Below are positions 41,390 through 59,391 of a DNA stretch of 64,000 nt, piece by piece. The position numbers and the translations under genes are program-made. The stretch is from Paraspadella gotoi (Eukaryota; Animalia; Chaetognatha): positions 5,873,621-5,937,620 of the forward strand of contig CM119264.1 in the NCBI GenBank assembly GCA_051294375.1, written 5' to 3'. Position 1 is the stretch's first letter; every line of letters begins with the position of its first letter. Below the pieces are notes generated by a model. That model saw only the letters and a program-made list of their open reading frames with translations, was not told where the DNA came from and ran no database searches.

Positions 41390-44300
41390 TCAGCGTCTCG
41401 ATCGCTTCGTAGGAAGCGAAGTGATAAAATCGTCGTCCTGTTTGACTTTTCTCGCTCTGCCCGATTGTCGGACGGGAGTGACCACGGGAACGGGCGAGTT
41501 CTCTTTTCTAGCCTTCGGTCGGCCGAGTTTGTTTTTGGAGTCGATGGGCGCCGCGTCAGCCCCCGCGTCAGCATCACGGACGGCTGAAGAAGGTCTTTCC
41601 GCGATGGCCGAAGAATGCTCGGCGTCGGGGGGGATTTGTGATTCGATCGACGAACAGAGTTCCGGGTTGGGGGTAATCGGATGAGGTCGAAAAGCTCCGG
41701 CTTCGGACTCGAGATTTGATTGTGGACTAGTTGAGTGTTTCTCCTCGGCAGAGATCGGCTCATTTTCAGTCGGGTTATCTTCCCTCGTCAAAACTTGTTC
41801 AAAATGAAGATCTTCCGCGGCAATCGGAGCGGATCCTTCCTTCGCGGGGAGATTCAATTGCGAATGAGAGGATTCGTCATTAGCAGCGCCGGTCGAGGAT
41901 TCGCTTTTTAAATGGACGAAGCTTTCTCCCTTGGTATCGGTGTGCATTGGCCCTTCGTCTTCGCGGACAAGAAGCAACGACTCTGATTCATTTGAATATT
42001 TTTTATCCGGTGAGTTTTGTCCCAGTAGAGCGTCATCGGCCAAATTACAATCCTCCGGTAATCGCGAGAAATGGTCGTGACGTTCTTCGTTCAACGAAAC
42101 ATTATCAGAATCGGAAGTAACTTCCATTTTAGAACCCTCCACTTGCCCCGGGCGACAGAAAGATCCCACATTAGGTGAAACTCGTTGATTTTGTGACTCG
42201 TATTCAGGAGGATTCTCTTCAACGTTCTCCCTGACGATCTCGAACTGTGTCTGTGAAGAAGTCGCTTTACACTCGGAAAAATCAATTTTAGATTTAGGTA
42301 AGCAGCTCGTTTGAACCTCTGCCGAATCTTTTTGAAAGGATTCGACTCTCGATTGGTCGATACTGGCACCTTCACTGACAGTCGTTTCAATGGAGGAAAA
42401 ATGAGAAGGATTTTCGAAATCGCCGAACTCATTCTCTTCATTTCTCGAAAAGTTTTCATTGCAAAAAGATTCGACTGGTTTTTGCATCAAAGCCTCGCCT
42501 TCCGCAACGACGGGCGGCCTCTCGGCGAGTTCATTTGCTTCTTCCTCTAAGGACGGCTTCTCATGGAGTTTGTTTTTTTCCGGGTCTTCTTCTATCAATG
42601 AAGACCTGTCTTTGTAATCCTTGATTACCGAAATCGGCGGTTCCTCATTACAATTATCATTATCACAGGCATCGACGATTTTTTTATTATTTTGAATCAA
42701 TTCTTTCGACAGAGATGAGTCAGAATCTGCCTCTCTTTCATGAATATTTTTGTCGCTATCACTCACTTGGATGATATTTTTTTGGCCGATTGATTTGTCA
42801 AAGTTCATGACTGTGGGTTCGACAATGGTCACTGCTTCGGAGATTTCGCTTTTTTTAGTGTTAGACCCAGGATTTGTTAAGACGACTTCTTGACAGATCC
42901 GAAAATTAATTCCCGTTCTATCAAATTTTTCATTTTCTTCTACTTTTAAATCGTTACTTTCTAAAGATTGGCTCGAGATGTTTAAATCTTTCTCGACAGA
43001 TTCACAAGAATCCCTCGTTAACGAATTCTGAAGCTCCGTCTTGGAGACTTCTCCTTCGTCATAGTCGACTGCGGAGACGTTAATGCCTGCCTCGTTGGAG
43101 ACTTCATTTTCGACTCGCAATGAAACTTTAATGTTGGGAAATTTTTTATCAGTTTCGTCTTCGGAAATATTTTGTCCCATTTTCTGATTCTTTTCTACCG
43201 ACTTTTCTTCCTCCTCCTCCTTCTCCGATTTAACTTCGCCCAGACCTATTTCCATTTCATTTTTCTTTTCATCTGATTCTTCGGCCTGGCCGCTCGTCTC
43301 TCTCTGTCGTTCGGCTTCTTCGGCAAGAATGGAGGCGGGACTTTTAGGAATCTTACAGGACTCGGAATTTTTCTCCTCGAATAGTCGGGGTTCTCCGTAC
43401 AAGACTTTCGCCCGCTTCAAAATCCCGCTGAGTGCCATGCGGTATTTGACGGAACCAATGGTCTCTTCTTCACTGGCCGAGGATTCTACCTCGCCCTCGC
43501 TCGCCGCAGACGGTTCTTCCGCCTCGTCCTCATTCGTCTTAGTCTCTTCCTCCCTTTCTTCTCCTTCTTCGGGCTTCTGGTGAATGATCCCCTCCTCCTC
43601 TCCCGTCCATTCCTCGTCGACTTCCCCGTCCTCCCAACATTCGTCGTCGGACACGATCTCCTCCACCTGAGGCTCCTCCTCCTCCGCAGCAGTTTCGGGC
43701 GTCAAACTGCGACGCCTCTTCCACAGATTGGATTGTTCGTCGAGCACTTTGACCGGCTTTCGGACTATTAACTGTTTCTCGACGTAAGTGGCGAAGTCGA
43801 CGATGACATCCCGGCGTAGAAGCGGGTCGGGTTCCGGCTTTTCCTTCGGAGAATCGCGCGCAGTGGGCGAGATGCTCTTTCTCCGCCGATAAAAGATTCG
43901 GCGGTCGTCGTCCGGCAACGGTTTTCTTCTATCCGTGATTTTCTTGACGGGCGAGGATTCTGGTTCCGAGGAAAGAGGATACTTGCCTTCCCTCGCCGCC
44001 CTCCGACGGTCGCGCTCCTCCATCCAGAGCCTGTGTTGTCGCTTCTGTTCGTCGGTGTCATCTTCGGACCGCTTCACGTAGAGAATGCCAGTCTCTTCGC
44101 TCTCAAAAGGCGGAGGAGGAAGAGGAGGCGGTGGAGCAGTCGCCTTTTCAACCGCATCTTTTGCATCATTTTTTTTATCGTCATCATCTTCATCTTCGTC
44201 GTCGTCCTCTATTTCTCCTTCGCTCACTTCTCGAGACGACGGTTTCGTTCCTTGAGAAGAATCTTTAACCGGAGATTCCTCATCTTCGTCGGAAGAGGAA

Positions 44301-47300
44301 GACGAAGACGACGAAGAGGAGGACGAGGAAGAAGAGGAATCTTCATCGGACTCTTTTTTAGACTTCGGTGTCGTCGGCTTAGGACGTTCAATCGAAATTA
44401 GTTTGCCCAACTCCTCGTCCCCGCTTGAGATGTCCTCCAAATTGGAGGAGCGACCCTCATCGCTCAACATTGACCCGCGAGGAGACAATCCCGGCGGCGG
44501 CATTGGCATCGGCGGTGGAGGCACCGAGGGTAGCGCTGGTGCCAAAGGCGCTCGCTTTTTCGGCGGCGAGGCCGAGCGACGTCGATCGGCGGGGGATAGA
44601 GATCTTTTGCGCTTTGGCGCCTGCGGTGAGGGCGTTCTCCGCTTGTAGAGCGGCCGCGGGGAAGGCGTTCGCCGCCGGGGTCGGGACGGAGACGAGGTAG
44701 CACCTTTTATCGTCGGATCATCTCTAGGCGAGGGCGGGCGCCCGGCATGGCGATACCGGGATTGCGGCGACGGAGTACGGGGTTGCGTTCTTTCTTTACT
44801 TTGAGAAGGATATTCTTTTTCGTGAGTGTGGTATTCCTTTTCGCGAGCGGGGTATTCCTTTTCGCGAGCGGGGTATTCCTTTTCGCGAGCGGGGTATTCC
44901 TTTTCGCGAGCGGTGTATTCCTTTTCGCGAGTGGGGTATTCTTTTTCGCGAGGAACATACTTCTTATCGCGAGTGCTTAATTCTTTTTCCCTAGAAGCAT
45001 AATCCTTTTCACGATGATAATAATACTCTTTCTCTCTGGCGCCGTAATCCTTTTCGCGATGCGGGTATTCTTTCAGCTGGGCATAGTCTTTCTCTCGTGT
45101 GACGAAATCATCGCGGAGAATCGTGGGAGGAGTAGAGGGGCGTTTTGACGGACTAGGCGACCCGCCTCTCCGATGCCCCAGAGGATAATCTCTTCCTCCG
45201 GAAGAGGAGAGGGAAGGGCCGAGAGGCGCGGGCGGCGATCCTTTATCGGCCTGAAACATCCTGGCCTTGTCCACCAAGTTGCTGCGGACGATTCGGGCCA
45301 AAGGATCGCGATCCCGTTTCCGCGCATCCTCGTCGTCGGCCTCCATTCTTGATGATTCTTTATAGGGCGACGATCCATGGGTACGTTGAAGCTTTTCTCG
45401 CCGATCTCGCTCCGACGGTAATTCGCCGGTGCTCTTGATGGCAGGGCGGGGCGACGCGGATGGGCGGATGACTTTTTCCTCCCGTTGTGATGGCGGCGTT
45501 TGCACGCTCTGACGAGGCGGAGTAAATGCTTCAGAGTTGGACTTTGTCTCCGCATCAACTCGGCGTCGATCGATTTCGCCGGGAACAAAGAGCGGCGCTG
45601 AAAGTTTCTTCGGCGTTGGCGAACGCGACTTGGTTCGGCTGCGCGATCTGAGTTCTGGGGTCCCCGGCGGAGTCCGCGGTCCGGACACCGATGATGAGGG
45701 CGGTGGTGTTCGAGGGCCTTCGCGAGAGCGGGAGAAAACTCTCGCCGGGATTCTCGGCGGCGTTTTGGGTGGCGTTTTCGATCCTTTAGTTGTGACGAGA
45801 GGCGAGATCTTGGGAGATTCTCGCGATCGAGACTCCAGGCTCCGGCCGATGCTTTTCTCTAAGTCGGAATCGACTGCTTCATCAGTTGATTCGTCGTCTA
45901 TGATGTATCGATCATCGAGAAAAGAATGCCGAGAGGATTTGTCATTGAAGATTGTCTCGAAGGCACCGTTGTCGTACCTCTGGTTGCGCTGCCTCGATCT
46001 TCTCAGCACCATCCTTTCCATGATCTTCTGCTCCCTAACTTCCGTCTTTTTCTCTGCCTTACTCTTTTTCGGCGATCGCTCGCTGTTTCGCGACGTGGAG
46101 CTGGCAGAATCGGCGTTCTCCTGCGTTCCGCCGCTCGATTCCAACGCGCGTTGACGGCGACGCTCCTCCAACTCCTCTCGTCTCTTCTTCCTCCTCAACG
46201 CCCGCTCCTCCTTTTCCTTTGGCTTCAATTTGATCTTGTCCCTGCGTGTCTTGGTCGAGGCGACGCTACCGCTGGCGTCCTCGTAATCGTCGTCGCTGCC
46301 GCCTTCCGAATCTCGTCGAGGCTTCTTCCGATTCAAAACTTTCCTCCTCTCTCCTTCTCTCATTCCTCTTCTTTCCCCTCTGCCCTCCTCATCCTCGTCC
46401 TCTTCCGTAAAGTCGCTCAACGAGAGATCGGACGTGTGAACGCTGGAGACGCTAATTTCGCTCATGAACTCGCTCAGGTCGTCCTCGGACATATTCTCCC
46501 AAGCGAATTTATATTCCTTGTGCGACGGGGCGAAAGCGGACAATTCATTTCTCTCATCCTTGGGTAGCGCTTCCAGCTCGGTCTTCCTACATTCCCTCGC
46601 GGCAAAACAGTCGACTTTTAGGTTGGACTCTATTTCTTCTTTCAAAGTTCCCCTCTCAGTGGTCGTTTTAACCAAGCCGACTTTTACATCCGGCTCTTTA
46701 GCTTTTACTGCGTCTATCTCAGCTTTGACCGCTGAGGATGGCGCCGGACTGCCATCTTTGTTCTCGGAGTTTTCAGCCGGTGGCATTGGCGCCGTTTCAG
46801 GTTCAGGAGGCAACGGAGCATCCGGTGCGGGAGGAGGTCCAGAAGGCGGTACAGAAGGCGGTCCAGAAGGTGGCCCGGAATGTGGCCCGGAAGCCGGCCA
46901 AGCACCCCAAAGACCCCAGGCGCCGGGCATCTGGGGTGGCATGCCTGGGACCCAGGGAGTCATGCCTGGAGGGTACATGCCCCAAGTTGGAGGCATGGAA
47001 TAAGGATATCCAGAATAGCCTGGTTGGCTCGGCAGGGGAGGGGCTCCCGAGGGGGGAGGAGGAATTGAATCAAGAGAGAGGTTCGGGGGAACAGGGGGCG
47101 GGGGCGGCAATGGAGGAACATGGCCAGGTGGTGGCGGGGCGTCTAACGGACCATACGCGCCGGGCGGCGGCCCGGTGGGTGGAATTAACGTCCCAGTGGG
47201 AGCAGAAGAAAGATTTGAAGTCGGCGGTGGAGGGCCGCAATCGAGGCCAAGAAACTCATAGGTGATCTCTTTGATTTTTGGTCGGAAGACAGTTGCTTTT

Positions 47301-47722
47301 TTGGGCTGAATGACTTGGTCGATCACCCTCTCCACGCCCGTTTGCAGGAAAGTCTGGAGATTGAGAGCGCGGCGAAGTGAATCCCGCACGGCGTTCTTGT
47401 TCATCCCTGGCTCCCATTTCTGCTTCGCCAAATGGTCTTGAACGAAGTTCTCCACGCGTTGTCGAAGATTCTTGCACGAAGATTAAACAGTGGTTGAAAA
47501 AATAACATGGAAGACTAAGTTCGAGACATCTTTTACTTTATTGCCTAAAAAAGTTTTAATGACAGAAATTGACACCTGATAGGCCGGTTTCGTATCCACG
47601 TCGGAGATCAATTCCCTCCTCAGTTCATCAAAGGTCCCTTGAGCTTTAACATGATCGATTATGGCCTGAACCAGTTTCGGGTCGCCAGGAGGAAGAGCGG
47701 AATAGTCTACCGTCGCCGTCAT
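41390..47722 (-). CDS. BOD1L1: BOD1/BOD1L1-like protein (Shg1/BOD1 domain plus ~2000 aa low-complexity tail)
   Basis: Exon 1 47722-47576 (LPPGDPKLVQAIIDHVKAQGTFDELRRELISDVDTKPAYQ) joins exon 2 47470-41390 (NLRQRVENFV...KWEPGMNKNAVRDSLR...GVERVIDQVIQPK). Also SEISVSSVHTSDLS. Confidence 0.9.
44810..45100 (-). repeat. Coding 21-bp tandem repeat (REKEYPA heptads) in BOD1L
   Basis: Repeated ggggtattccttttcgcgagc units translate to REK(E/D)Y(P/T/A)x. Confidence 0.9.
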
Positions 47723-47869: not shown

Positions 47870-49648
47870 TCAGTTAAGATCGTCGTCGCTATAATCGCTC
47901 CATGTATCCGAGTAGGCTTCGACACCACTCTTCTTAGGGTCTTCATCTTCTTGCTCCACATTCAACCGAGTTTGGCGCTCCATATGCTCCATAAACGACG
48001 GCTCTCGATCGCTCGCCGCGCTCGTCCACACAACCAAATTTCGATCGTTGCCTCCCGAATACAATTCGTGATACCAAGGATGCAGCGCGACGAAATTGAC
48101 ACACTGAAAGTGACCTCGCAAACCGGCATCAATTCCGGCCTCCTGACCCGGCGAAAGTTTGGCGCCGGTGTAAACGTCAAAAACTCGTATGTCGTCACCC
48201 GATGGACAAAAAACGGCGCTCCGTAGGCCGGCGTCGAGTATTACCATCGAGGACTTTCGGTCGTTGTTGATCTGAGGGACGTCGCCGAAAAAGGCGGCTC
48301 GGTCGAGGCGCCCAGAGCGAGCGTCCCACAGGCGCATCGCGGCGTCGACTCCGAGAGAAAGGATGTGATGCCCGTCGGGGGTAAAACGGACGCACTTGAC
48401 GCAACCGCGATGGGCGTGGGCGTTCGTGGAGGCCCTTAGAAAAGAGACAGCAATTTAGTTAATACCAAAGTGGGAGTGAAAGAGAAAGTTTTAATCGACT
48501 TTAGCTATCCTGTGGTTTTCTATACCTTCTTTTCCAGTTGTCTTCGCCGCTCGACAAATCGAGGCAGAACAAGACGCTTTTGGCACGGCGAATGTCCCAG
48601 ATCAGAATTCGACGGTCTTGGCTTGCTGAGGCGAGGCGGTACTGATCTCGAGGAGACCAATTCAGGGAGAGCACTGGACCTTCGTGTCCTTTTAAAATGT
48701 GGGAGGCAGAGCCGGTCTAAATATAAAGGAAGATAATACGTCCTCCAATAACTTGGACTTTTTTTGCCGTTTAAAAATGTGACCCTCCCTTCAATAAAAG
48801 CCTAACCTTCATGTCAAAAATGTGACCCTCCCTTCAATAAAAGCCTAACCTTCATGTCAAAAATGTGACCCTCCCTTCAATAAAAGCCTAACCTTCATGT
48901 CAAAAATGTGACCCTCCCTTCAATAAAAGCCTAACCTTCATGTCAAAAATGTGACCCTCCCTTCAATAAAAGCCTAACCTTCATGTCAAAAATGTGACCC
49001 TCCCTTCAATAAAAGCCTAACCTTCATGTCAACCAGCTTGATGCGCGAGGAGGAGGTGGCGACAGCGATGAGACAGGAGTTTCCGGCGACAGAAGACACG
49101 TCGTGATCATTAACCGTCGTTGAGAAATGAAATTCGTCGACCGGCGTCACGGCGTTCGCGTCCCAAATCTTGAGCGTTTTGTCGCATCCGCTCGTCAGGA
49201 ACATCCCCGTGTCGAAGGGGTACCACGAAGCAGTCTCGACGCTGTAGGCGTGAGCAACATCGGGTTTGGAACGCTTGTCCACCACCAGGACCGACTTATA
49301 GCTCGAGAAGATCTCGCCGTCCGGGTGAACAGAGTCTGAGACGTCGTGAATCGCCACCGTGCCGTCGACGCCGCCTATACGTAGATAAAAACAAAATAAG
49401 AAATTTTAAATTTTAAAAACAAAAATCCATTTAACGTTCCCCTCGCCTCGGGCATTACCTGAAATGAAGTAACGACACTCGGTCGGATCAACCGATCCGC
49501 ACACGACAGGCGTCCTATGCACGGGTTCGAACCCCTTGTATTTTGCCAAGTCTAACGAGGTCGCCCGCCTGTCCGCTTCCATCGTCTCAAATAGGACGGG
49601 CGTCTTTGCCAGAGAACCACATTCTCGATCTCTTAGCCGTCTCAGCAT
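47870..49648 (-). CDS. ERCC8: DNA excision repair protein ERCC-8 (CSA), WD40, 4 exons
   Basis: Exons ~49648-49459, 49374-49022, 48716-48526, 48435-47870. Motifs RYFISGGVDG, AHAYSVETASWYPFDTGMFLTSGCDKTLKIWD, DMKTGSASHILKGH, IWDIRRA, LRGHFQCVN...ELYSGGNDRNLVVW and C-terminal DTWSD. Confidence 0.93.
48773..49030. repeat. Perfect 6 x 43-bp tandem repeat spanning an ERCC8 exon/intron junction
   Basis: Unit aaaaatgtgaccctcccttcaataaaagcctaaccttcatgtc starts at 48773, 48816, 48859, 48902, 48945 and 48988. Confidence 0.95.
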
Positions 49649-49709: not shown

Positions 49710-50530
49710 TCAGGTGGACCAGCGGAAACGATAAACGGCCAGCTTTTCGCGGCCGGCCCTTCGCTCCAGGATTTTCTCGCCGGTCAGGGCAAAAGCTTCT
49801 AGCGCTGCTACAATTTCCTCCGGGTCGTTCTCTGGGACGGCGACGAGATAGAAGAGGCCAATGGGTTTGCTCAAAAGATTCGGAACGAGCGGAAGGAGGC
49901 GATCGGTGACAAGGCGGCCGCGTTCACCTCCGGCCCAACTTGCTGCGATCCCGCGGGCGCCAACTTCTTCCGGGGGCGTCGGGACGTAGGGAGGATTAAA
50001 GACGAGAACGTCCACCGAAGATTGTAACCTAAGGGGAGTGGTGGAAGATGGTCAACCAAATTATGTAAAATTAAAAAAATATGACTTGAACCCGTACCTC
50101 GTCAAAAAGGGACCAATCAAATCGGTGACGATCGGCTCGACTAAATCAGATCGATTTCTCGCAGCCGTCGCCCGCGTCGCCGCCGCCGCCCGTGAATTTA
50201 GGTCAGTCGCGAAACAAATTGGTTGAAACTGAAACGACGAAATCAGTTGAGACAAAAACGCGAGCGGAGCGCCGGAGCCGCTGTGGTTGGAGAATGGGGT
50301 GAATTTAACAAAATTAAAACTGGAGAAAATAAAAGAAATTGCCTTGCACGTAATTAAAACCATTTTTAAACAAACCTTCCGACTTCAAGGCATATTGAGG
50401 GCTGGGCAGATTTTAACAGTTCCACGTCCTTTTCCAAAGCGTCCATGAGCAAAAAGGTATCCTCGGCCGGCTCGTAAATATGGTTGTAATCTTCGGAAGT
50501 CAAATGCCTCAAATCCGGCGTCGGAAACAT
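49710..50530 (-). CDS. N6AMT1: Methyltransferase N6AMT1/HEMK2 (3 exons)
   Basis: PTPDLRHL...YEPAEDTFLLMDALEKD...ICLEVGSGSG, ATDLNSRAA, DVLVFNPPYVPTPPEEV, WAGGERGR. Confidence 0.95.
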
Positions 50531-50756: not shown

Positions 50757-50852
50757 GACGCACGAGGTTTCAAGAAATTATATGGAGAAATATGATGCTA
50801 TGATAACGGAACAACAGGAAGAACGCTGAGAAGATCCGAGAAGCGAAATATT

Positions 50853-52757
50853 TCATCTGTCGGACCTGAGTTTTCCCCCCGATTCGGCAACGGCGAAGGC
50901 CAACGAGAGATTACTCTCCACGCGATCAAACCTTTCCATCTCCAGTCTCCGTTTCCGCGAACGCAGGTCGCCGAGACGAGCCTGAGCGGGCGCCGACTCC
51001 AGATCGGCGCGCATCCCGAAACGCGGCCGTCCTCCTTTGCCACCGATCCTATCGCGAAGGTCGCAATCGCCACCGCCACCGCCTCCGCTCGCGAACTTTT
51101 TTATCGCGGGTCTTGAGAATTCGTCGTCGTCGGTGAACCGATCGTCTCCATCTGAGTCGCGGGGACGAACCGCGCGCTGCCGGGCCTCGGACTTAGACCG
51201 CCGCGGCGCCGAGTTGATTTCCATTAGGGGCTGGATCTTAGCGGGAGCGGCGTCTTCGCGCTTCCGAGTGGGAGGCGCAGCGCGTTTCCCGAGTCGGGAA
51301 TGCAGAGATGCTCGAGGAAGATCGCCTCGCAAGCGGGATATAACGTCACGGCGGCTTAATGGTCTATCACGAGTGTGAATGTCGTCGTCCTGGTCGTATT
51401 CGATGCGCACGTCTCCATCAAAGGCGTCGCCATCATCTTCCGAGTCGAGATCGCGTCCGAATCGCTCGGCGAGACCCACGAATTCGCCCGCGCGAAGCGG
51501 ATGCGGCGGGCGTCGCAGCCGTTCTTCTTTCAAACGCTGACTTATGGACGGACGAGCAATGGGGCGACTCCCGTTGGTCGACGCCCCGCCGAGACCGGCG
51601 GCGCCGAAGGTTTTGTTGACGACGATCGCGGGCGATTCGCTCCGCTGGACGCGGCGCAACTTGGAGCGAGAATCTGGCGAGACGCGTTCGAAGGGAGTCT
51701 TGATGAGTTGGGATCGAGTCGCGAAGACGGGATAAGCGTTCCTCCTCCGTTTCTCCGCTTCAGAATCCGTGGATTCACTGGACGACGACGAAGAGTCACT
51801 GGAGGAAGAAGAAGAGCTGCTGCTGCTGTCCCGGCGGCGCCCACTTTTCTCCACAACCCGTTCCACAAAGCGAGATCCGTTTTCCGACGAAACCGTGGCC
51901 TCGCCCCTTTGTCGTCCATTGAGCTTCGATTTGGAATCGGGGGCAAGTCGTTTGTTAGTCGTTGCCTTAGTCATGGCCTTAGTCATGGACTTTTTGATTG
52001 GCGCAACTTCTTCCTCTTCCTCCTCTGAAGAATCCTCGTTGTCCATCGTGATGACGATCTTAGCAGGATCGACGTCGCCGAATTCTTCTCCGCCCTGACG
52101 ACGCTTCTCCGCGCGCAGCAAATCGGCAAAGTCGCGCCCCTTGCGGGGCTTGACACGTCCCTTCAGAGAGACGGCGCCCTTCTCGCCCTCTTCGGCTTCA
52201 ACGTCGGCATACATTCGCATTTTCGTCTTTTGTCTTCGGTTGAAAAGTTCCGCTCTATCTTCTTCCTCTTCACTCCAGACGCCCGATTTTGAATCCTGGA
52301 CGCCGTTGCCGCCACCTGATTCGATGGAGAGTTCCTCGGCTCGACGAAGCTCCTCCTCCAACTCCTCATCCACTTGCGTCTTTTCTCGTGGTGCGGCGCC
52401 CGTCTCGTCATCCTCATCCACTTCCATCGAGCCGAGCTCCGGGCCGCCGGCGAGCTCTTCGGCCCGGCGCAGTTCCTCGCGAAGTTCCTGGTCGACGTCA
52501 AAGCGGCCACTCTTTACATCGTCGTCGTCGTCGTCTTCTTCGTAGTCCGGGGCGACGTCGTCGTCGACAACGACTCGTCTTTTGTTTCGGTCGACTGCTA
52601 TCTCTCCATCCAAGTCCCGCTCTACTTCGCCAACTTCGTCGTCAGTATCGCCTCCCGCACGGGCGTCGCCGAAGATGTCGCCGATCTCGTCGTAGTCGAG
52701 GATCTTGCGATGCTCCACTGCCTTGGTGCCATCCTCCACGACTTTCCTCAGTGGCAT
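50853..52757 (-). CDS. 634-aa single-exon acidic/Arg-rich protein resembling the C-terminal half of NCBP3
   Basis: Long ORF with exon-like GC content. KMRMYAD resembles NCBP3 KMTMYAD, followed by LHSRLG/DLRDRIG/DLRSR repeats and a C-terminal SNLSLAFAV (cf. SNLPSLQIEV). No RRM is visible. The ORF is well supported, but the identity is tentative. Confidence 0.5.
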   Translation of the reverse strand: MPLRKVVEDGTKAVEHRKILDYDEIGDIFGDARAGGDTDDEVGEVERDLDGEIAVDRNKRRVVVDDDVAPDYEEDDDDDDVKSGRFDVDQELREELRRAEELAGGPELGSMEVDEDDETGAAPREKTQVDEELEEELRRAEELSIESGGGNGVQDSKSGVWSEEEEDRAELFNRRQKTKMRMYADVEAEEGEKGAVSLKGRVKPRKGRDFADLLRAEKRRQGGEEFGDVDPAKIVITMDNEDSSEEEEEEVAPIKKSMTKAMTKATTNKRLAPDSKSKLNGRQRGEATVSSENGSRFVERVVEKSGRRRDSSSSSSSSSSDSSSSSSESTDSEAEKRRRNAYPVFATRSQLIKTPFERVSPDSRSKLRRVQRSESPAIVVNKTFGAAGLGGASTNGSRPIARPSISQRLKEERLRRPPHPLRAGEFVGLAERFGRDLDSEDDGDAFDGDVRIEYDQDDDIHTRDRPLSRRDVISRLRGDLPRASLHSRLGKRAAPPTRKREDAAPAKIQPLMEINSAPRRSKSEARQRAVRPRDSDGDDRFTDDDEFSRPAIKKFASGGGGGGDCDLRDRIGGKGGRPRFGMRADLESAPAQARLGDLRSRKRRLEMERFDRVESNLSLAFAVAESGGKLRSDR

Positions 52758-52985
52758 TTTATTAGTTGTTTGTGAATGTAATGCGATGTTTAAAAACTAA
52801 AACAAATAAATAATAACGAGCGAGTTTTTAAATTCCATCGGGCTAAAATCACACAGAAAAAGATGAACGAAAACTTTTAACACGTTAACGGAAATTTCTG
52901 GCATTATCAAACATGGCGAGCCCTCAAACTTCCCGTTAACATCTAGTGCACATTCAAGATATTGTCCACTAGGCAAAAGCTTGCG

Positions 52986-53762
52986 TCACGTCGTCAATTT
53001 GTCGTAATGTTCGGTGAGCATCTTGGCCAGCGCGTCGATCTCTCCCCGCTTATCATCGAGCGTCTGTTTCCGTTTTGTCGACGACGACATGCCCGCCATG
53101 TTGACGGCGTGAAACTCTTCGAACCCGACCATGGCGAAGATTAGTTTAAGGTAAGGCGCGAGAAAATCTCGATCCGGGCTGGCCGCACCACCGGCCGACG
53201 TAAAAAGGATGAGCGGTCGGCCGGGCCGGACAGGTCTTGGCGGCTCTCCCCGCTTCTCCTTGAAATTAATACCAGGCTGGATAACGATATCAATGTACTG
53301 CTTGAGTATGTAGGGAATGCTGAAGTTCCACATGGGCGTAGAGACGATGAGCACATCGACCAGGTTTATCTCTTTCGCCATAGCGAGCACTGGCTCGAAC
53401 TTTTCCAGGTCCTCGGCGGTGCCCTTACCGCGAAGGATACGGAGCTTAGAGTCGGCGTATCCCGAGTCGTAGTGGTAGAGTTCCTGCCAGAGGTCGAGGG
53501 CTTTGACCCGGTGAGGAATCGTCAGTTGATCGAGCAGGTTACACGCGGCGACGGAGACGATAGAGTTAGGATTGTGGCCGACATCGAGATGAAGAATGTT
53601 GATGTATTTGTTGTTGTTTTTGTTATTGTCCTCCCCCTCGAACTGGTGCCAGAATTCGCCGGCAAAAATATTTTCGTTTCGGTAGAGACGGAGGAAAACG
53701 GGGAAGACGGGCAAGAATCTCGCTTGGTTCGACCAGCGACCGGAGATTCTCGCCAAAGGCAT
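52986..53762 (-). CDS. FMN-dependent NADH-azoreductase/quinone reductase (AzoR/AcpD flavodoxin-like fold), intronless, with N-terminal extension
   Basis: INILHLD...S+S, LDLW, DVLIVSTPMWNFSIPYILKQYIDIVIQPGINF, FTSAGG and DFLAPYLKLIFAMVGF match AzoR motifs (APMWNFSIP..LK.YID; TSRGG; DF..PYL..IFGF+G). Probable ATG at 53762, giving 258 aa. Confidence 0.9.
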   Translation of the reverse strand: MPLARISGRWSNQARFLPVFPVFLRLYRNENIFAGEFWHQFEGEDNNKNNNKYINILHLDVGHNPNSIVSVAACNLLDQLTIPHRVKALDLWQELYHYDSGYADSKLRILRGKGTAEDLEKFEPVLAMAKEINLVDVLIVSTPMWNFSIPYILKQYIDIVIQPGINFKEKRGEPPRPVRPGRPLILFTSAGGAASPDRDFLAPYLKLIFAMVGFEEFHAVNMAGMSSSTKRKQTLDDKRGEIDALAKMLTEHYDKLTT

Positions 53763-53900
53763 GTTTGATTCACTCTCTCGTCTCTCGCTTTTAATCTGTA
53801 GGAGCAAAGTCAATAACAATGCAGTCGAAATCTATTATTTTGGGTTGACTAGAAATGGAATGCGAATATCGCGCCGGCAAGCGTCCCCGCGAACTTAGTT

Positions 53901-56233
53901 TCAGGCGGACGGGTTGGACGTGGATTTGACGACGAGTGGATTAGAAAGACGAAAGATTCCCGGCAACATGTTGCAAAACGTCTGATCGAAAAGAAATAAT
54001 TTCTTTTGTAAAAAATAAAAAATGTCGACAACGAAAAAAAATCCTAACCTGAAAAAGACTATCGTCGATTCCGGATGGAACTAAAAACTGAATTTCTCGA
54101 TTCCGCTGACCGGAAGAACCGGCACTGCCGATAGAACCGGAACCCGAAGTTCCTGTCGCGTTCCACGTCGCCATCTCCATCATGAAACCTTTGACGCACT
54201 GAATGAAGAAAAAGATGGAGAGGATGTCGCGGAAATAAAAATCAGGAACCCTAAACTACCTAATTTATTAACAGCATTTTTACCTTGAAGACCAGCTCGG
54301 CCCTCTTCACGCACCATGGTATCGTCATTTCTTCCCCCATCTCGTGAGTGAGGAGGAGGGGAACGCAAACCGTAGTGATGTCGTACTGAGAACAGAGTTT
54401 GAGTATGTTGCGAATGGAGAGGATCGAATAATGACGCGAGGTGAGGTTGCCGTCCCTGACCGAGTCGTCGACGGAGAGGTGGAAGACGGCGTGCACCTGC
54501 GCCAGATTCGAGTGGCGTGTCACGTAAAAATCGCCCGGCCGCAAGTGGGTCGTTTCTCGTTCCACCACTTCGGCCACGTTGAGGAATTGGGAAGGATCCG
54601 TTGGAGAGTTGAACTCCGGCGGAAGAGGATCTTGGATTGGCGGGGGACGTTCAATTGATTAGAATGAAATTGGCATAATGGACGAAAGGATGAAAACTGA
54701 CAAAGTAACATCCAAAAAAAGAATAGAAAGTATCAATCTAATTATCACATCAAAGAGATCATAATATCCTGGCTTTCTCACCTTCTCCCTTCTCACATCT
54801 TGAGAGGTTGACGGCATCGAGATCTTCCCGGATCCGCGCGAACTGCTTCTCTAAATCGTCAAAGTGGAAGTCGGTGCTCGAGTCGCAGGCGCGGGCAAAG
54901 CGGCGCTTCATACCCGAGTAGGTGTTGAGGCGAGAGTCGACGAGGAGAATCATTCCTGGGATCGAGGGGGAAAAGGATGAAAGAAGAAGGAAGGAAAGAA
55001 TCGAAGGCAAGGGATAAAGGAAAAGTAGAGAGGAAAAAGCAGAGCTCACTTGACATTCTAATATTGAAAAAATTGATATTATTCCACATCTTTCTGTTAC
55101 CACTTAATCTCTAAAATCCGTCCTTGGCTTAAAACCCCTTGAGGGGGTTCATAGAAGTTAACGAACACAAACTCTGAGTCTGAAGATAGATTTCTGCCTT
55201 CCGTATGTCACTGTCCGTTTGTTTCAGCCAGACAACTCCATTTTCGATCTTCCGAGCCGAGGTCGAGCTAACCGGTGAGAGAGTTGGCATAAAGGCCCAT
55301 AGCCGTTTGGAGTCGCTGCGGTGATGGCAACAAATGACCATCGACTTTCATGGGGCGATGAATGCAGAGATGATCGATGACATCGCAGCACAGTAGGCGA
55401 AGGTTAAAACTCGTTTTCATTTGAGTCCCTGAAAAAAGAAAAAAAAGAAAAAGAAAAAAAAAGGAAAAAAAAATAAGGAGCAGTAATTTTTAATGTTCAG
55501 CGTTTGATGTCCGTTTCTTGTGTTTACCCAAATGTATTGTGAAGCTCTCTTCCATGATCGATCGCAAGGCCCTCGTATCGGCTTCCACCTCCGGCGACTC
55601 TTTCGATTTGTTTTTGCGAAGACCGACTAAATGGGGAGCCGAGGTCGTTGCGGCGGCGGGGGGAGTCGCCTGTTCGTAATATTATTTCAAACTTAACAAA
55701 TTATGTATAATTCGATTAAATATAAATCCGCCACTCGACTCACAGTCGGCGAGGGAGTTTTGGAATCGAACAAACTTTGAATCTTCGTCAGATAAGAAGT
55801 TAAGTCGTCGCTGGTTTGAATTTCCTCGTGAACTTGCATTACCCACGACCTTGTGAATTAAAAGAAAGGAGAAAAGGATATGCCATATGGGCTCAAACGT
55901 AGAAGGAAGTTCTTAAGGAAATAAAAACAATAAGACAAAAAAATGGAAGGAAAGGATCGGCAAATATCATTAACGGGTTCCGGAATTTCCTTCACTATTC
56001 CTCCTCTGGGGAGGGGGGGGGGAGAAAAACCGGAGGTGACGTTTATCATGTTTATCTCGTTGACCTCGATAAAGTCGGGATTGACAAGAATTTGGGGGGG
56101 GGGAGTTAGGCGCGATACAACGATCCGAAAAGGCTTTCGCGGTCACGGGGTCAGAAAAAAAATCGGCAGGGGTTGGATTTGGCCGGGACTAACGTCCTTA
56201 ATCCGACGGACAACAGTGGGAAAACGTGTGTGC

Positions 56234-56316
<83 letters not shown>

Positions 56317-59300
56317 TCAATCGTTTATGTATGATGTATATGCAAAAAAGGAGAATTTTAAGGTTTTCAATAGAGTTTTCCTAAGTTTGTATGCGATTCC
56401 ATTCAACAGAGCCAAAACTGCGAAGTAAAAAAGAAATTTATTTTGCCATCGCCCACCAAAATCGCCGTCCCCATCGGCAATGGCCAATGGCCATTGTCCG
56501 CGATCACTTTGTCTCGAAGTCGTGGGTCCGTCGATCCTCGACGATAAATGACCCTGACTTCGGTCAACGCGACTGTGTCGATCGGCTGTCAACGGCTTAA
56601 AAATCGAGAGGCGAAGAGAGCGAGAGAAGGATTTTTCATTCTGAGTCTTGATGACTGCAAGCACAGCTATTTGTTTTTTTTTATTTCGCGTGGAACGTAA
56701 AATCGAAACTCAACAACAACACAAAATAAACACAAGACAAAATAAAAATTCGAAACTATGGTTTTTGCCGTGGTAATTCGCCTGTTGGCGTTGCTCGCAA
56801 TAATCACCGTCAATCCCTCGGACTGTTTTAAATTAAAAAACCTTTTTCAATTTGAGTCCGACGTCTGGGATTCGCCACGTCCACGTCGATCGGTTCGAGT
56901 CTCCGACGAGAAATTACTAGGGGTAAGATCGTGAAGAAATAGAAAAAAAAACCCAACTTGGTCATTTCTTCTATGAATTCCAAACAACACGAATTGCATA
57001 AATATATTTATATATCTTTTGTTTTTCATCATCATTTTAGAATGTAGTTGACCCGGGCAGCGACGATGACGAAGACGAAGCGGACGACGATATAAATGAC
57101 GAATTAAGCGAAGACGACGAAACGACGAGCGAAGAAGAATTTGAAGAAGAATTTAACGACGACGACGAAGAAGGAAAAGAGAAAAAAGTAGCTCAGGCCT
57201 TGGAAAGCCTCTTGAGAAGGTAAATCAATGTTCAACATCAAAATCAACGACTTTCATTTTAAATACAATAGATTATTGAACCTCGGCCCCATTTTCTCCT
57301 ATATTCCTTTTTTACTCCTTACAGGCGTCAACTGCTCTCGCCGACCGGATTTCGCCTGATGATCACACAGAATGGAACGGTGAGGGGCACGAGAAGAGAT
57401 TACGCTCTGCACGGCATTTTGGAACTGTTCCCCGAGGAAAGCCTCGACGATAACGTTACCGACGAAAAAATTAAGCGAGTTTTCGCCGAGGCGAGAGCCA
57501 ACGGTGAGTTTTCATCTGGTCAAAATTTTGTAGATGTTAAATCAATGTTTTAACCCATAAATATTTAACATTAATACCCTCACCTTTATCCCTAATTAAC
57601 AACTTAAATAAAGAGTCTTTATGCTTAGCAGGAAGCAGTACATTTTGTCGCTCGTCGTTTTAGATCTCCGTCGTTTCGACCTTCTCCCGTCTCACGCCAC
57701 CGTCCCCCCCACACGCGCCTTTATCAGAGGCGTCAAGAGCGACCTCTACATTTGTATGACGGACAAAGGCGAAGTGGCGGGCAAGGAGACGCTCGACACG
57801 AGTTGTATTTTCGACGTCGATACGCAGCCCGATAAAACCATCACTCTCTCGAGAAGAATGCCCAAAGGAGGTAAGGGTTGTTAAAAAAATTACTGGCGAT
57901 AAAAAACGTTCTCATTAGAATCAATTAAAACAAGATTGGATCCGAAAATCTTTTTCCCCAGACGGCCGCCCTCGCCGCGATGTGACTGACTTTCGCAACA
58001 TCCAAACCTATTACTTGGCTGTGTTCACACACCATCCCTATAAAGGATTCGTACGCGGCTTGGACGCCGTCACATTGCTACAAACCGACCCCCATTCCCT
58101 CTCCCGCATCGCAAAGCAAGTCTCCTTTCTCGAGCGGCCCGTCGACCCGGAAAAAGTCCCCAAACTTTATAGCTACGAAGAAGCCGGTCTTCTCGTGCTG
58201 GACACCGTTGATTAAACGGTCGGGATCCGCAAACGTAACATTCGTTTTTAGCATGCCTCTATCTACGTTTCTAGATTACACATGTCTGATTATCTGTTGA
58301 GTCGTTAAGATATATCACTATTATCATCCGCTTTTTAATTTTGCATTAAACCATTTTAACGGCAAACAGCTCTCGTTTTTTTCTTATCCTTAACCGCTCC
58401 ACGCTTCCTCGACTCGAATCCCACCTGTACTCCCTCCTCTGCGCCTCACGAAAAGCGCAGATCTCCGAGGCCCACTTGGACTCGGCGACCTGCACGGCCT
58501 CGAAGTGTCGGGCGGCGACGTCGTTGATGGCCTTGTCGTCGTGGGTGGAGCCGAGTCCCTTCACCGCCGTCGCCATCTCCTCCTCCTGTTTGGCCTCGAG
58601 GATTTCTAGATCGTCGTCGCGCCGGCGGACGAGGTCCTCCATTGCCAGAGCGTAGCTAGAATTGGGGAGGGCGATGGAGAAGAGACTTAGTCGTCAGGGA
58701 ACATTTGTGATAATCCACAAATTAATCTGCTACAAGAAGACGTTTACATCGGCAAAATGCAAATGAATTTGAAGTTGCGGTCGTACCGATGCTCAATATG
58801 TAGCAGTGTTTCCATCGCAGGAGAGTGGATGAGGGAGTGATAAACTTCAGAGAATAGCAGCGTGTCCGAAGCCTCCTCCGGTTTGGCGAATTGACGCCAC
58901 TCGCGCGAGTAGGCTTTGGCCCACGACTCGGCGAGCTCGATGACGTCTAAAGTGGGAACAACGATCTCAAGATGAACTCTCCTTGGACGCCCGAAATCAC
59001 GTTTGTAGCCGTTCTTCTCTAACCTTTTGACGTCTTGCCATCCTTCATGGATCGTATGGAGGCTTCGGCCGCCTCGTCCTTGATTCGGTTGGACTCGTCG
59101 GTGACAAAGTCCTTCAACGTCGCCTTCAGGTCTGCCTCAACGAAGCAAGGGAGCCCGTGGGCAGCGACGAGGCGTTCTGCCAGCTCATCTACGTGCAAAG
59201 CGGAGGAGGGAAGCGCGATTGGGACGCGGAGGGTGTGTCTGGAATTTCAGACGAATGCGGTGTGCAAAAATAAATTCAATTAAGTTTTTATAAAGTAATA

Positions 59301-59391
59301 TATTACTTTTTTCTCACCTGAGATTCGGCTTTCCCGTCTTAAAAGAAAAGACAAACTCTTTCAACTTCTTTGTGGGAGAAGTCGCGACCAT
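53901..59391 (-). CDS. C12orf4: C12orf4/FERRY3 homologue (DUF2362), multi-exon
   Basis: [56 protein letters not shown]|[84 protein letters not shown]. Confidence 0.93.
56237..56313. repeat. (AG)n microsatellite
   Basis: Uninterrupted ag run of ~76 bp, upstream of the nested FGF gene. Confidence 0.98.
56758..58215 (+). CDS. Fibroblast growth factor, FGF9/16/20-like, 5 exons, nested antisense in a C12orf4 intron
   Basis: Exons 56758-56922, 57041-57219, 57325-~57503, 57664-57870, 57962-58215 with compatible phases. [56 protein letters not shown]...CIF, YYLA and [15 protein letters not shown] align to FGF9 (ILRRRQLYCRTGFHL...GTRKDHSRFGILEF; IRGVDSGLYLGMNEKGEL; FLPRPVDPDKVPELY). Confidence 0.9.

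What the first reader, a model, noticed from the sequence alone, without database searches (positions are those of the whole stretch)
52986..53800. Bacterial-type AzoR azoreductase embedded in an animal gene cluster: probable domesticated horizontal transfer
Seen: an intronless gene with AzoR/AcpD motifs (PMWNFSIP..LKQYID, TSAGG, DFLAPYL), 138 bp from C12orf4 and 228 bp from the next gene. Its composition matches its neighbours and it has its own splice acceptor 33 nt before the ATG. Known: the AzoR family is mainly bacterial, and the usual animal relatives are NQO1/NQO2. Inference: a transferred gene could be expressed without its own promoter by landing in a trans-spliced operon. Flanking intron-containing animal genes argue against contamination.
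Basis: partly seen in the sequence, partly recalled or inferred. Interest (0 to 1): 0.75.

Follow-up and report, generated by a model that had tools for sequence, protein, structure and literature searches.

The report
Animal azoreductase shared with copepods, corals
This animal carries a real, transcribed gene for a bacterial-style quinone-reducing enzyme, likely sent to mitochondria, whose closest relatives are in copepods, corals and protists rather than bacteria, so it likely arrived from another marine eukaryote or is an old gene that most animals lost.

Summary
The gene is real: 258 intronless codons at 52986-53762 (-), AzoR fold, all five rubric residues present. It is tied to its flanks in DNA contigs of two studies and in one spliced contig. 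It is not a bacterial transfer into this lineage. It sits in one eukaryote-only branch (100/99) with copepods, anthozoans, oomycetes and other protists; bacteria reach at most 34% identity. Forcing its group next to bacteria is marginally rejected (p-AU 0.042). Its group pairs with copepods (99/99). The anthozoan copy is already listed in print as a transfer from dinoflagellates. An N-terminal extension looks like a mitochondrial presequence. Six gaps of 61-472 bp suit a trans-spliced operon, but no leader was seen. Unchecked scan notes call this genome an arrow worm's, a phylum with known operons. If so, the tie to copepods, their usual prey, suggests a eukaryote-to-animal or animal-to-animal transfer. 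Inheritance with many losses is not rejected (p-AU 0.28). Verdict: new member of a known kind; interest 0.42.

The parts
52986..53762 (-). AzoR-type flavodoxin-2 gene, 258 aa, intronless (P0001)
   Evidence: inside spliced contig of X9
53682..53762 (-). Codons 1-27: likely mitochondrial presequence (4 basic, 0 acidic residues in the first 25; low pLDDT)
   Evidence: composition only, no targeting predictor was available
53652..53669 (-). Codons 32-37, IFAGEF: motif shared with copepod, anthozoan and protist members
   Evidence: matched in 1 of 71 bacterial homologues
52998..53600 (-). Flavodoxin-like core, about residues 55-255, with S67, P143, K154, D158, F167, G191
53796..53815 (-). Candidate unpaired splice acceptor, 33 nt before the ATG (rival acceptor at 53849)
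   Evidence: leader addition not observed
53763..53900 (-). 138-bp gap between the C12orf4 stop and the AzoR start; no donor site; covered by the spliced contig
53901..59390 (-). Upstream gene C12orf4/FERRY3, spliced GT-AG introns
   Evidence: Pfam Fy-3; joints
50853..52757 (-). Downstream intronless gene, 634 aa, no Pfam family
49710..50530 (-). N6AMT1/HEMK2-like gene (name recalled from motifs), 218 aa, 2 introns
47870..49648 (-). WD40 gene, ERCC8-like (name recalled), 432 aa, 3 introns
41390..47722 (-). BOD1-like gene (Pfam COMPASS-Shg1), 2075 aa
59863..61966 (-). PSME3/PA28-like gene (name recalled; bounds approximate); its last exon lies on one X9 contig with the first C12orf4 exon

Best explanation
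The gene is a transcribed chromosomal gene for an AzoR-fold flavoprotein that belongs to a eukaryote-only branch with copepods as nearest kin; it likely works as a mitochondrial FMN-dependent NADH:quinone reductase, is likely cut out of a multi-gene transcript by spliced-leader trans-splicing, and likely reached this lineage sideways from another marine eukaryote rather than from a bacterium. Shown: the ORF, fold, conserved residues, linkage, transcription and tree position. Inferred: (1) the presequence takes it to the matrix; (2) it forms the AzoR homodimer and passes two electrons from NADH through FMN to quinones, which avoids semiquinone radicals (established AzoR chemistry, recalled); (3) it is transcribed from an upstream operon promoter and gets a leader at 53795 or 53848; (4) the bacterial origin is old, before the eukaryote branch split, and the later step was lateral, from a protist lineage that also supplied copepods or from the copepod line itself.
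For: Top structure matches are all AzoRs (model pLDDT 83.6). The AzoR rubric of PMC10132220 (section 5 read) maps to S67, P143, G191, K154, D158 and F167. Eleven of 12 window-group proteins have 3-6 basic and no acidic residues in their first 25. DNA contigs of X1 (50762-55428) and X5 (51074-55428; a second study) bridge both flanks. One X9 contig holds spliced C12orf4 exons, both gaps, this gene and the next, while the intron bin 48722-48958 has zero depth. A different organism in run X11 has a matching piece, 16 differences in 94 nt. Trees: eukaryote branch 100/99, window group plus copepods 99/99. Five columns (H63, V69, N133, I165, N166) are shared by the window group and copepods but rare elsewhere. 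Named animals found in three word searches: only Tigriopus and six anthozoans. Of the best 150 exhaustive hits, the non-cnidarian animal-type ones form three subgroups, two anchored as copepods. With the species tree forced, the stem shared by the window group and copepods is 0.33, the copepod stem 0.08 and the animal stem 0.014, the reverse of what steady vertical descent would give (copepod crown 446 +/- 47 Ma, PMC5244711 passages; older splits recalled). PMC4878875 Table 1 already lists the anthozoan gene as a transfer from dinoflagellates.
Against: Animal monophyly is not rejected (p-AU 0.28), nor is copepod monophyly (0.36), so nesting in copepods (88/63) is unproven. The base of the eukaryote branch is unresolved. 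Most hits are unnamed, so other animal phyla may hide among them. The word searches are lossy: one search missed Tigriopus and all the named anthozoans. I did not establish the host phylum myself. No leader was seen, and a contig across genes shows no single transcript. The FMN-phosphate loop is shorter and altered (VGHNPNSIV against SPRxxxSxS in bacteria). NCBIfam AzoR cut-offs are not reached. Branch lengths come from one fast LG+F+G4 search with no control gene.
Confidence: 0.5

Rival explanations
1. Same enzyme, but inherited vertically from the cnidarian-bilaterian ancestor or earlier and lost in most animal lineages.
For: Animal monophyly not rejected. Anthozoans, copepods and the window group share a presequence-like start and the F-x-G-E motif. 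41% identity to Tigriopus suits an old orthologue. A copepod-type locus, L006, has three GT-AG introns, so the gene is old in animals.
Against: It needs many independent losses, and retention in a lineage described as losing thousands of families (PMC12460157 passages). The animal stem is near zero and the shared stem long. No named bilaterian other than Tigriopus was found.
Confidence: 0.35
2. The host is not an arrow worm but a copepod or close crustacean relative, so the pairing with copepods is plain inheritance.
For: Window group plus copepods 99/99; copepods have spliced leaders (PMC4664967 passages); my only direct source for the phylum is unchecked AI notes.
Against: At least five separate notes on other pieces of this genome point to arrow worms. 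The window group falls outside both the calanoid and the Tigriopus-containing subgroups. Runs of sub-250-bp gaps match described chaetognath operons.
Confidence: 0.07
3. A bacterial azoR moved directly into this animal lineage, independently of other eukaryotes.
For: AzoR-type sequence and fold; no intron; nearest Atlas clusters for P0001 are bacterial.
Against: Best core identity to 69 named prokaryote homologues is 34%, against 44-46% for copepods. No bacterium lies inside the eukaryote branch. The forced grouping costs 28.6 log-likelihood units, p-AU 0.042. The N-terminal motif is shared with other eukaryotes.
Confidence: 0.05
4. The ORF is an alternative last exon of C12orf4: the last C12orf4 donor (54048) and the 53796 acceptor are both phase 0 with an open frame between, so a fusion protein could form.
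For: The frame is open from the acceptor to the ATG.
Against: No such joint in X9. Relatives are stand-alone proteins with their own presequence-like starts. A phase match has a one-in-three chance.
Confidence: 0.02
5. Contamination or misassembly, for example prey or bacterial DNA.
For: None found.
Against: Bridged to both flanks in two DNA studies and one spliced contig; orthologue in another organism's run; a family of 55-67% identical relatives.
Confidence: 0.01

Closest known systems
Bacterial FMN-dependent NADH:quinone oxidoreductase / azoreductase AzoR (E. coli 1v4b/2d5i, Bacillus AzrC 3w78/9c0w, P. aeruginosa paAzoR1 4n9q)
   Same: Flavodoxin-2 fold (TM by target about 0.8); FMN-cradle and dimer residues conserved.
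   Different: About 55-residue N-terminal extension with a presequence-like start and IFxGEF motif; shorter phosphate loop with His63; about 20% structural identity; below NCBIfam cut-offs.
Anthozoan 'fmn-dependent nadh-azoreductase' listed as a transfer from dinoflagellates (Bhattacharya et al. 2016, PMC4878875 Table 1 no. 31; passages read)
   Same: Very likely the same eukaryotic branch: Stylophora, Montipora, Nematostella, Actinia, Exaiptasia and Dendronephthya proteins group with it. I did not see that paper's sequence or tree.
   Different: That paper treats it as anthozoan; here it is in a bilaterian and in copepods, which form their own clade and do not group with anthozoans in the best tree.
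Copepod AzoR-like proteins (Tigriopus californicus TCAL_05267 / XP_059080915.1; calanoid transcript L001)
   Same: Nearest named kin, 41% identity; five shared diagnostic columns; L001 begins with the calanoid spliced leader.
   Different: The copepod-type locus L006 has three introns; the window gene has none.
Chaetognath SL-resolved operons (Spadella RPS14-PCNA, PMC2481426; Paraspadella gotoi, PMC12460157; passages read)
   Same: Same-strand housekeeping genes with gaps under 250 bp (138, 228, 61, 147 bp), bridged in spliced contigs.
   Different: No leader shown here; two gaps (322, 472 bp) exceed that paper's 250-bp rule; host phylum not established by my calls.
Vertebrate NQO1/NQO2
   Same: Flavodoxin-2 quinone reductases of the same superfamily.
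   Different: Far weaker matches (E 2e-5 to 0.06); they use FAD (PMC4274662 passages) and are cytosolic (recalled).

Membership tests
AzoR-type azoreductase | Flavodoxin-2 fold | tested here: met
   Pfam 89.8 bits; Foldseek top hits all AzoR, E 6e-15
AzoR-type azoreductase | FMN-cradle residues S16, P95, G142 (E. coli numbering) and no Pro at 97/98 | tested here: met
   S67, P143, G191; W145 and N146 are not Pro (S67 mapped through the profile alignment)
AzoR-type azoreductase | Dimer salt bridge K105/D109 and aromatic F119 | tested here: met
   K154, D158, F167
AzoR-type azoreductase | Curated NCBIfam score cut-off | tested here: not met
   28 bits against 188 (PRK13556) and 23.6 against 143 (PRK01355); both are narrow bacterial subfamily models
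AzoR-type azoreductase | Binds FMN, forms a homodimer, reduces quinones or azo dyes with NADH | not testable with these tools
   Needs an assay; no complex job was sent
NQO1/NQO2 | Closer to NQO than to AzoR | tested here: not met
Bacteria-to-animal transfer specific to this lineage | Nested among bacterial sequences, apart from other eukaryotes | tested here: not met
Bacteria-to-animal transfer specific to this lineage | Physically linked to host genes and transcribed | tested here: met
Copepod-to-host transfer | Nested inside copepods with copepod monophyly rejected | tested here: inconclusive
   88/63 with calanoids; p-AU 0.36
SL-resolved operon | Same-strand genes under 250 bp apart | tested here: met
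   138 and 228 bp on either side
SL-resolved operon | Leader joined to the downstream gene's acceptor | tested here: inconclusive
   No loose end at 53795 among the rows shown for X9; contigs cannot show starts
SL-resolved operon | One precursor RNA spanning the genes | tested here: inconclusive
   One spliced contig bridges the gaps, but overlapping UTRs would look the same
Mitochondrial matrix protein | Cleavable basic, acid-free presequence | tested here: inconclusive
   Composition fits in 11 of 12 window-group proteins; no predictor or localisation

The most novel reading that the evidence does not exclude
An arrow-worm ancestor took a mitochondrial azoreductase from the copepod line, its prey, as an intronless copy that landed inside a trans-spliced housekeeping operon and was expressed at once without a promoter: an ancient predator-prey gene transfer between two animal phyla.
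Probability: 0.22. Interest if true: 0.8.

Novelty: new member of a known kind. Interest (0 to 1): 0.42.

Why it matters
It corrects a tempting 'bacterial gene in an animal' call: the gene belongs to a little-studied eukaryotic AzoR branch that in print I found only as one line in a coral transfer table. It extends that branch to copepods and a second bilaterian group and suggests a mitochondrial FMN quinone reductase unlike NQO1/2. If the arrow worm-copepod pairing is lateral, it would be a rare functional gene transfer between animal phyla and a test of the idea that trans-spliced operons are easy landing sites. If it is vertical, it is an ordinary case of heavy gene loss.

Tried and rejected
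P0001 is not in the protein collection letter for letter. No RNA holder is on record; X9 is a guess supported by GT-AG joints. X10 gave no match on the gene, which shows nothing. No viral relative among 58 candidate stretches. No chaetognath leader start in the window beyond chance (1 match, 1.76 expected). No tRNA and no Rfam match near threshold in 40000-64000. The 101-row careful tree did not finish; its quick tree is cited. In one search the BOD1-like and ERCC8-like starts were off by one; one search replaces it, and the two gaps are 147 and 61 bp, not the 148 and 62. Codon fit does not separate host from bacterial genes. A C-terminal SAM domain that I guessed in the protist group was not confirmed by Pfam. 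Three readable supplements of PMC12460157 hold none of six gene terms; its large table file could not be read and may list this gene or operon. Paper searches with no relevant hit: azoreductase + HGT + copepod (19), + arthropod (28), + metazoa (47), + Tigriopus terms (82), + chaetognath (93); chaetognath + HGT (65) and animal-to-animal terms (85) were seen as listings only. Scan notes held nothing on this gene by sequence, place, words or relatives.

Full report
Observation. The reading frame runs from ATG 53762 to the stop at 52986 on the minus strand and gives 258 residues. It matches Pfam Flavodoxin_2 at E 2.4e-25, and its best solved relatives are bacterial AzoRs. That AG scores like a modest true acceptor (3.8; top 7.5% of 1228 AGs), but another at 53849 scores 5.4, and the gap holds no donor. 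GC matches five neighbours; GC3 is a little higher (0.69 against 0.54-0.66), and 17 of 71 bacterial homologues fit the host codon table as well, so composition says little. The next gene downstream is intronless too.

It is part of the animal's genome and is transcribed. Of 11 runs listed, 9 hold the stretch. Laid on the window, a contig of X1 (a possible source) spans 50762-55428 and one of X5 (another study) spans 51074-55428, apart from a skipped repeat. Run X9 skips 15 shown introns at GT-AG ends, so it behaves as RNA. One X9 contig carries spliced C12orf4 exons, the 138-bp gap, this gene, the 228-bp gap and the next gene, while an intron bin has zero depth. A second organism (X11) has a piece matching the core with 16 differences in 94 nt. 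Contamination is excluded.

Setting. Seven genes run head to tail on the minus strand: PSME3-like, C12orf4, this gene, an unknown 634-aa gene, N6AMT1-like, ERCC8-like and BOD1-like (several names recalled). The gaps are 472, 138, 228, 322, 61 and 147 bp. X9 contigs bridge five of the six; the 322-bp gap breaks at a CT repeat. This fits operons resolved by spliced leaders, as described for arrow worms (PMC12460157 and PMC2481426, passages). No leader showed as a loose end at 53795, but contigs cannot show starts, and overlapping UTRs would bridge gaps as well. Unchecked scan notes on other pieces call this an arrow-worm genome; I could not test that directly.

Protein. The model (pLDDT 83.6) has an unstructured start to about residue 50 and a flavodoxin core; all listed Foldseek hits are AzoR-family structures. 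The five-residue AzoR rubric and the extra aromatic of PMC10132220 (section 5 read) map to S67, P143, G191, K154, D158 and F167. The phosphate loop is shorter and carries His63, and narrow NCBIfam models are not reached. NQO2 and NQO1 match far more weakly. The first 25 residues hold 4 basic and no acidic residues; 11 of 12 window-group proteins and most copepod and anthozoan relatives look alike, followed by an F-x-G-E-type motif found in 1 of 71 bacterial homologues. I infer a mitochondrial FMN-dependent NADH:quinone reductase; this is untested.

Relatives. The closest are unnamed proteins at 54-71% identity, then Tigriopus californicus at 41%. Profile searches add oomycetes and six named anthozoans. 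Locus L001 begins with the calanoid spliced leader of PMC4664967 (passages; match in 1 of 160 loci), which anchors its subgroup as calanoid. L006, a copepod-type genomic locus, has three GT-AG introns. Of the best 150 hits of the exhaustive search, nearest-neighbour sorting puts 56 in this eukaryote branch (7 window group, 8 calanoid-type, 23 Tigriopus-type, 2 anthozoan, 4 oomycete-type, 8 C-terminally extended protist-type, 4 unplaced), 16 in a separate tandem-domain group and 78 with bacteria. Only one copepod, six anthozoans and the oomycetes carry names; other labels rest on tree position.

Trees. Domains covering under 140 profile positions were dropped and the rest thinned at 70% identity (470 to 265 rows). 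That tree, a 101-row quick tree and a hand-picked 52-row careful tree all give one eukaryote branch with no bacterium inside (100/99). The window group pairs with copepods at 99/99 and with calanoids at only 88/63. The 16-row outgroup held 13 named prokaryote loci, two further bacterial-type proteins and one tandem-domain row that is probably eukaryotic. AU tests: window group with that outgroup, p 0.042 (marginal); copepods as one clade, p 0.36; animals as one clade, p 0.28. So a direct bacterial gain is disfavoured, and vertical descent in animals is still open.

Which history. For a lateral route: no named bilaterian besides Tigriopus turned up, the exhaustive search shows only three bilaterian-type subgroups, five columns tie the window group to copepods, and under a forced species tree the shared stem (0.33) is four times the copepod stem (0.08) while the animal stem is 0.014. 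With a copepod crown near 446 Ma (PMC5244711 passages) and older protostome and cnidarian splits (recalled), even rates would give the reverse. Against it: the AU results, lossy searches (one search missed Tigriopus and the named anthozoans), unnamed hits, no control gene and an unconfirmed host. I put lateral among eukaryotes at 0.5, vertical with losses at 0.35, host is a copepod relative at 0.07, direct bacterial gain at 0.05.

What is known. PMC4878875 Table 1 lists an anthozoan FMN-dependent NADH-azoreductase as a transfer from dinoflagellates (passages), and the Atlas holds a mostly cnidarian cluster nearest the Tigriopus protein. Five searches found no paper on the copepod or arrow-worm gene; the large supplementary table of PMC12460157 could not be read. 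The gene is a new member of a known kind. Its interest lies in the likely mitochondrial targeting and in the possible transfer between prey and predator, which I rate at 0.22.

Noticed in passing
window 55850-58424: A 2575-nt intron of C12orf4 holds an FGF-like gene on the opposite strand (Pfam FGF at 57612-57884).
   Followed up: partly
window 48770-49030: Six 43-bp tandem copies in an ERCC8-like intron, each repeating the exon end and donor site; the spliced contig uses the first donor, and DNA contigs break here.
   Followed up: no
window 58702-58734: A short hairpin-like element in a C12orf4 intron; many contigs match it and run on into other sequence, so it is likely a dispersed repeat.
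   Followed up: no
window 52026-52254: Contigs of DNA runs X1 and X5 replace this stretch of the 634-aa gene by 17 other letters: a deletion allele or another copy (table 5c).
   Followed up: no
window 50853-52757: Intronless 634-aa acidic and Arg/Ser-rich gene without any Pfam match, on the same spliced contig as the AzoR gene.
   Followed up: partly
P0038, P0056, P0059, P0062 and relatives: A separate branch of proteins with two to four AzoR domains in tandem, one ending in a SnoaL-like domain; unnamed, probably protist.
   Followed up: partly
L001:1-32: The calanoid copy of the gene carries the copepod spliced leader, so it is trans-spliced in copepods.
   Followed up: yes
L003-L005: Coral-type copies are intronless and seem to sit head to head with another gene a few hundred bases upstream.
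   Followed up: no
window 41390-47470: The BOD1-like gene has a single coding exon of about 6 kb.
   Followed up: no
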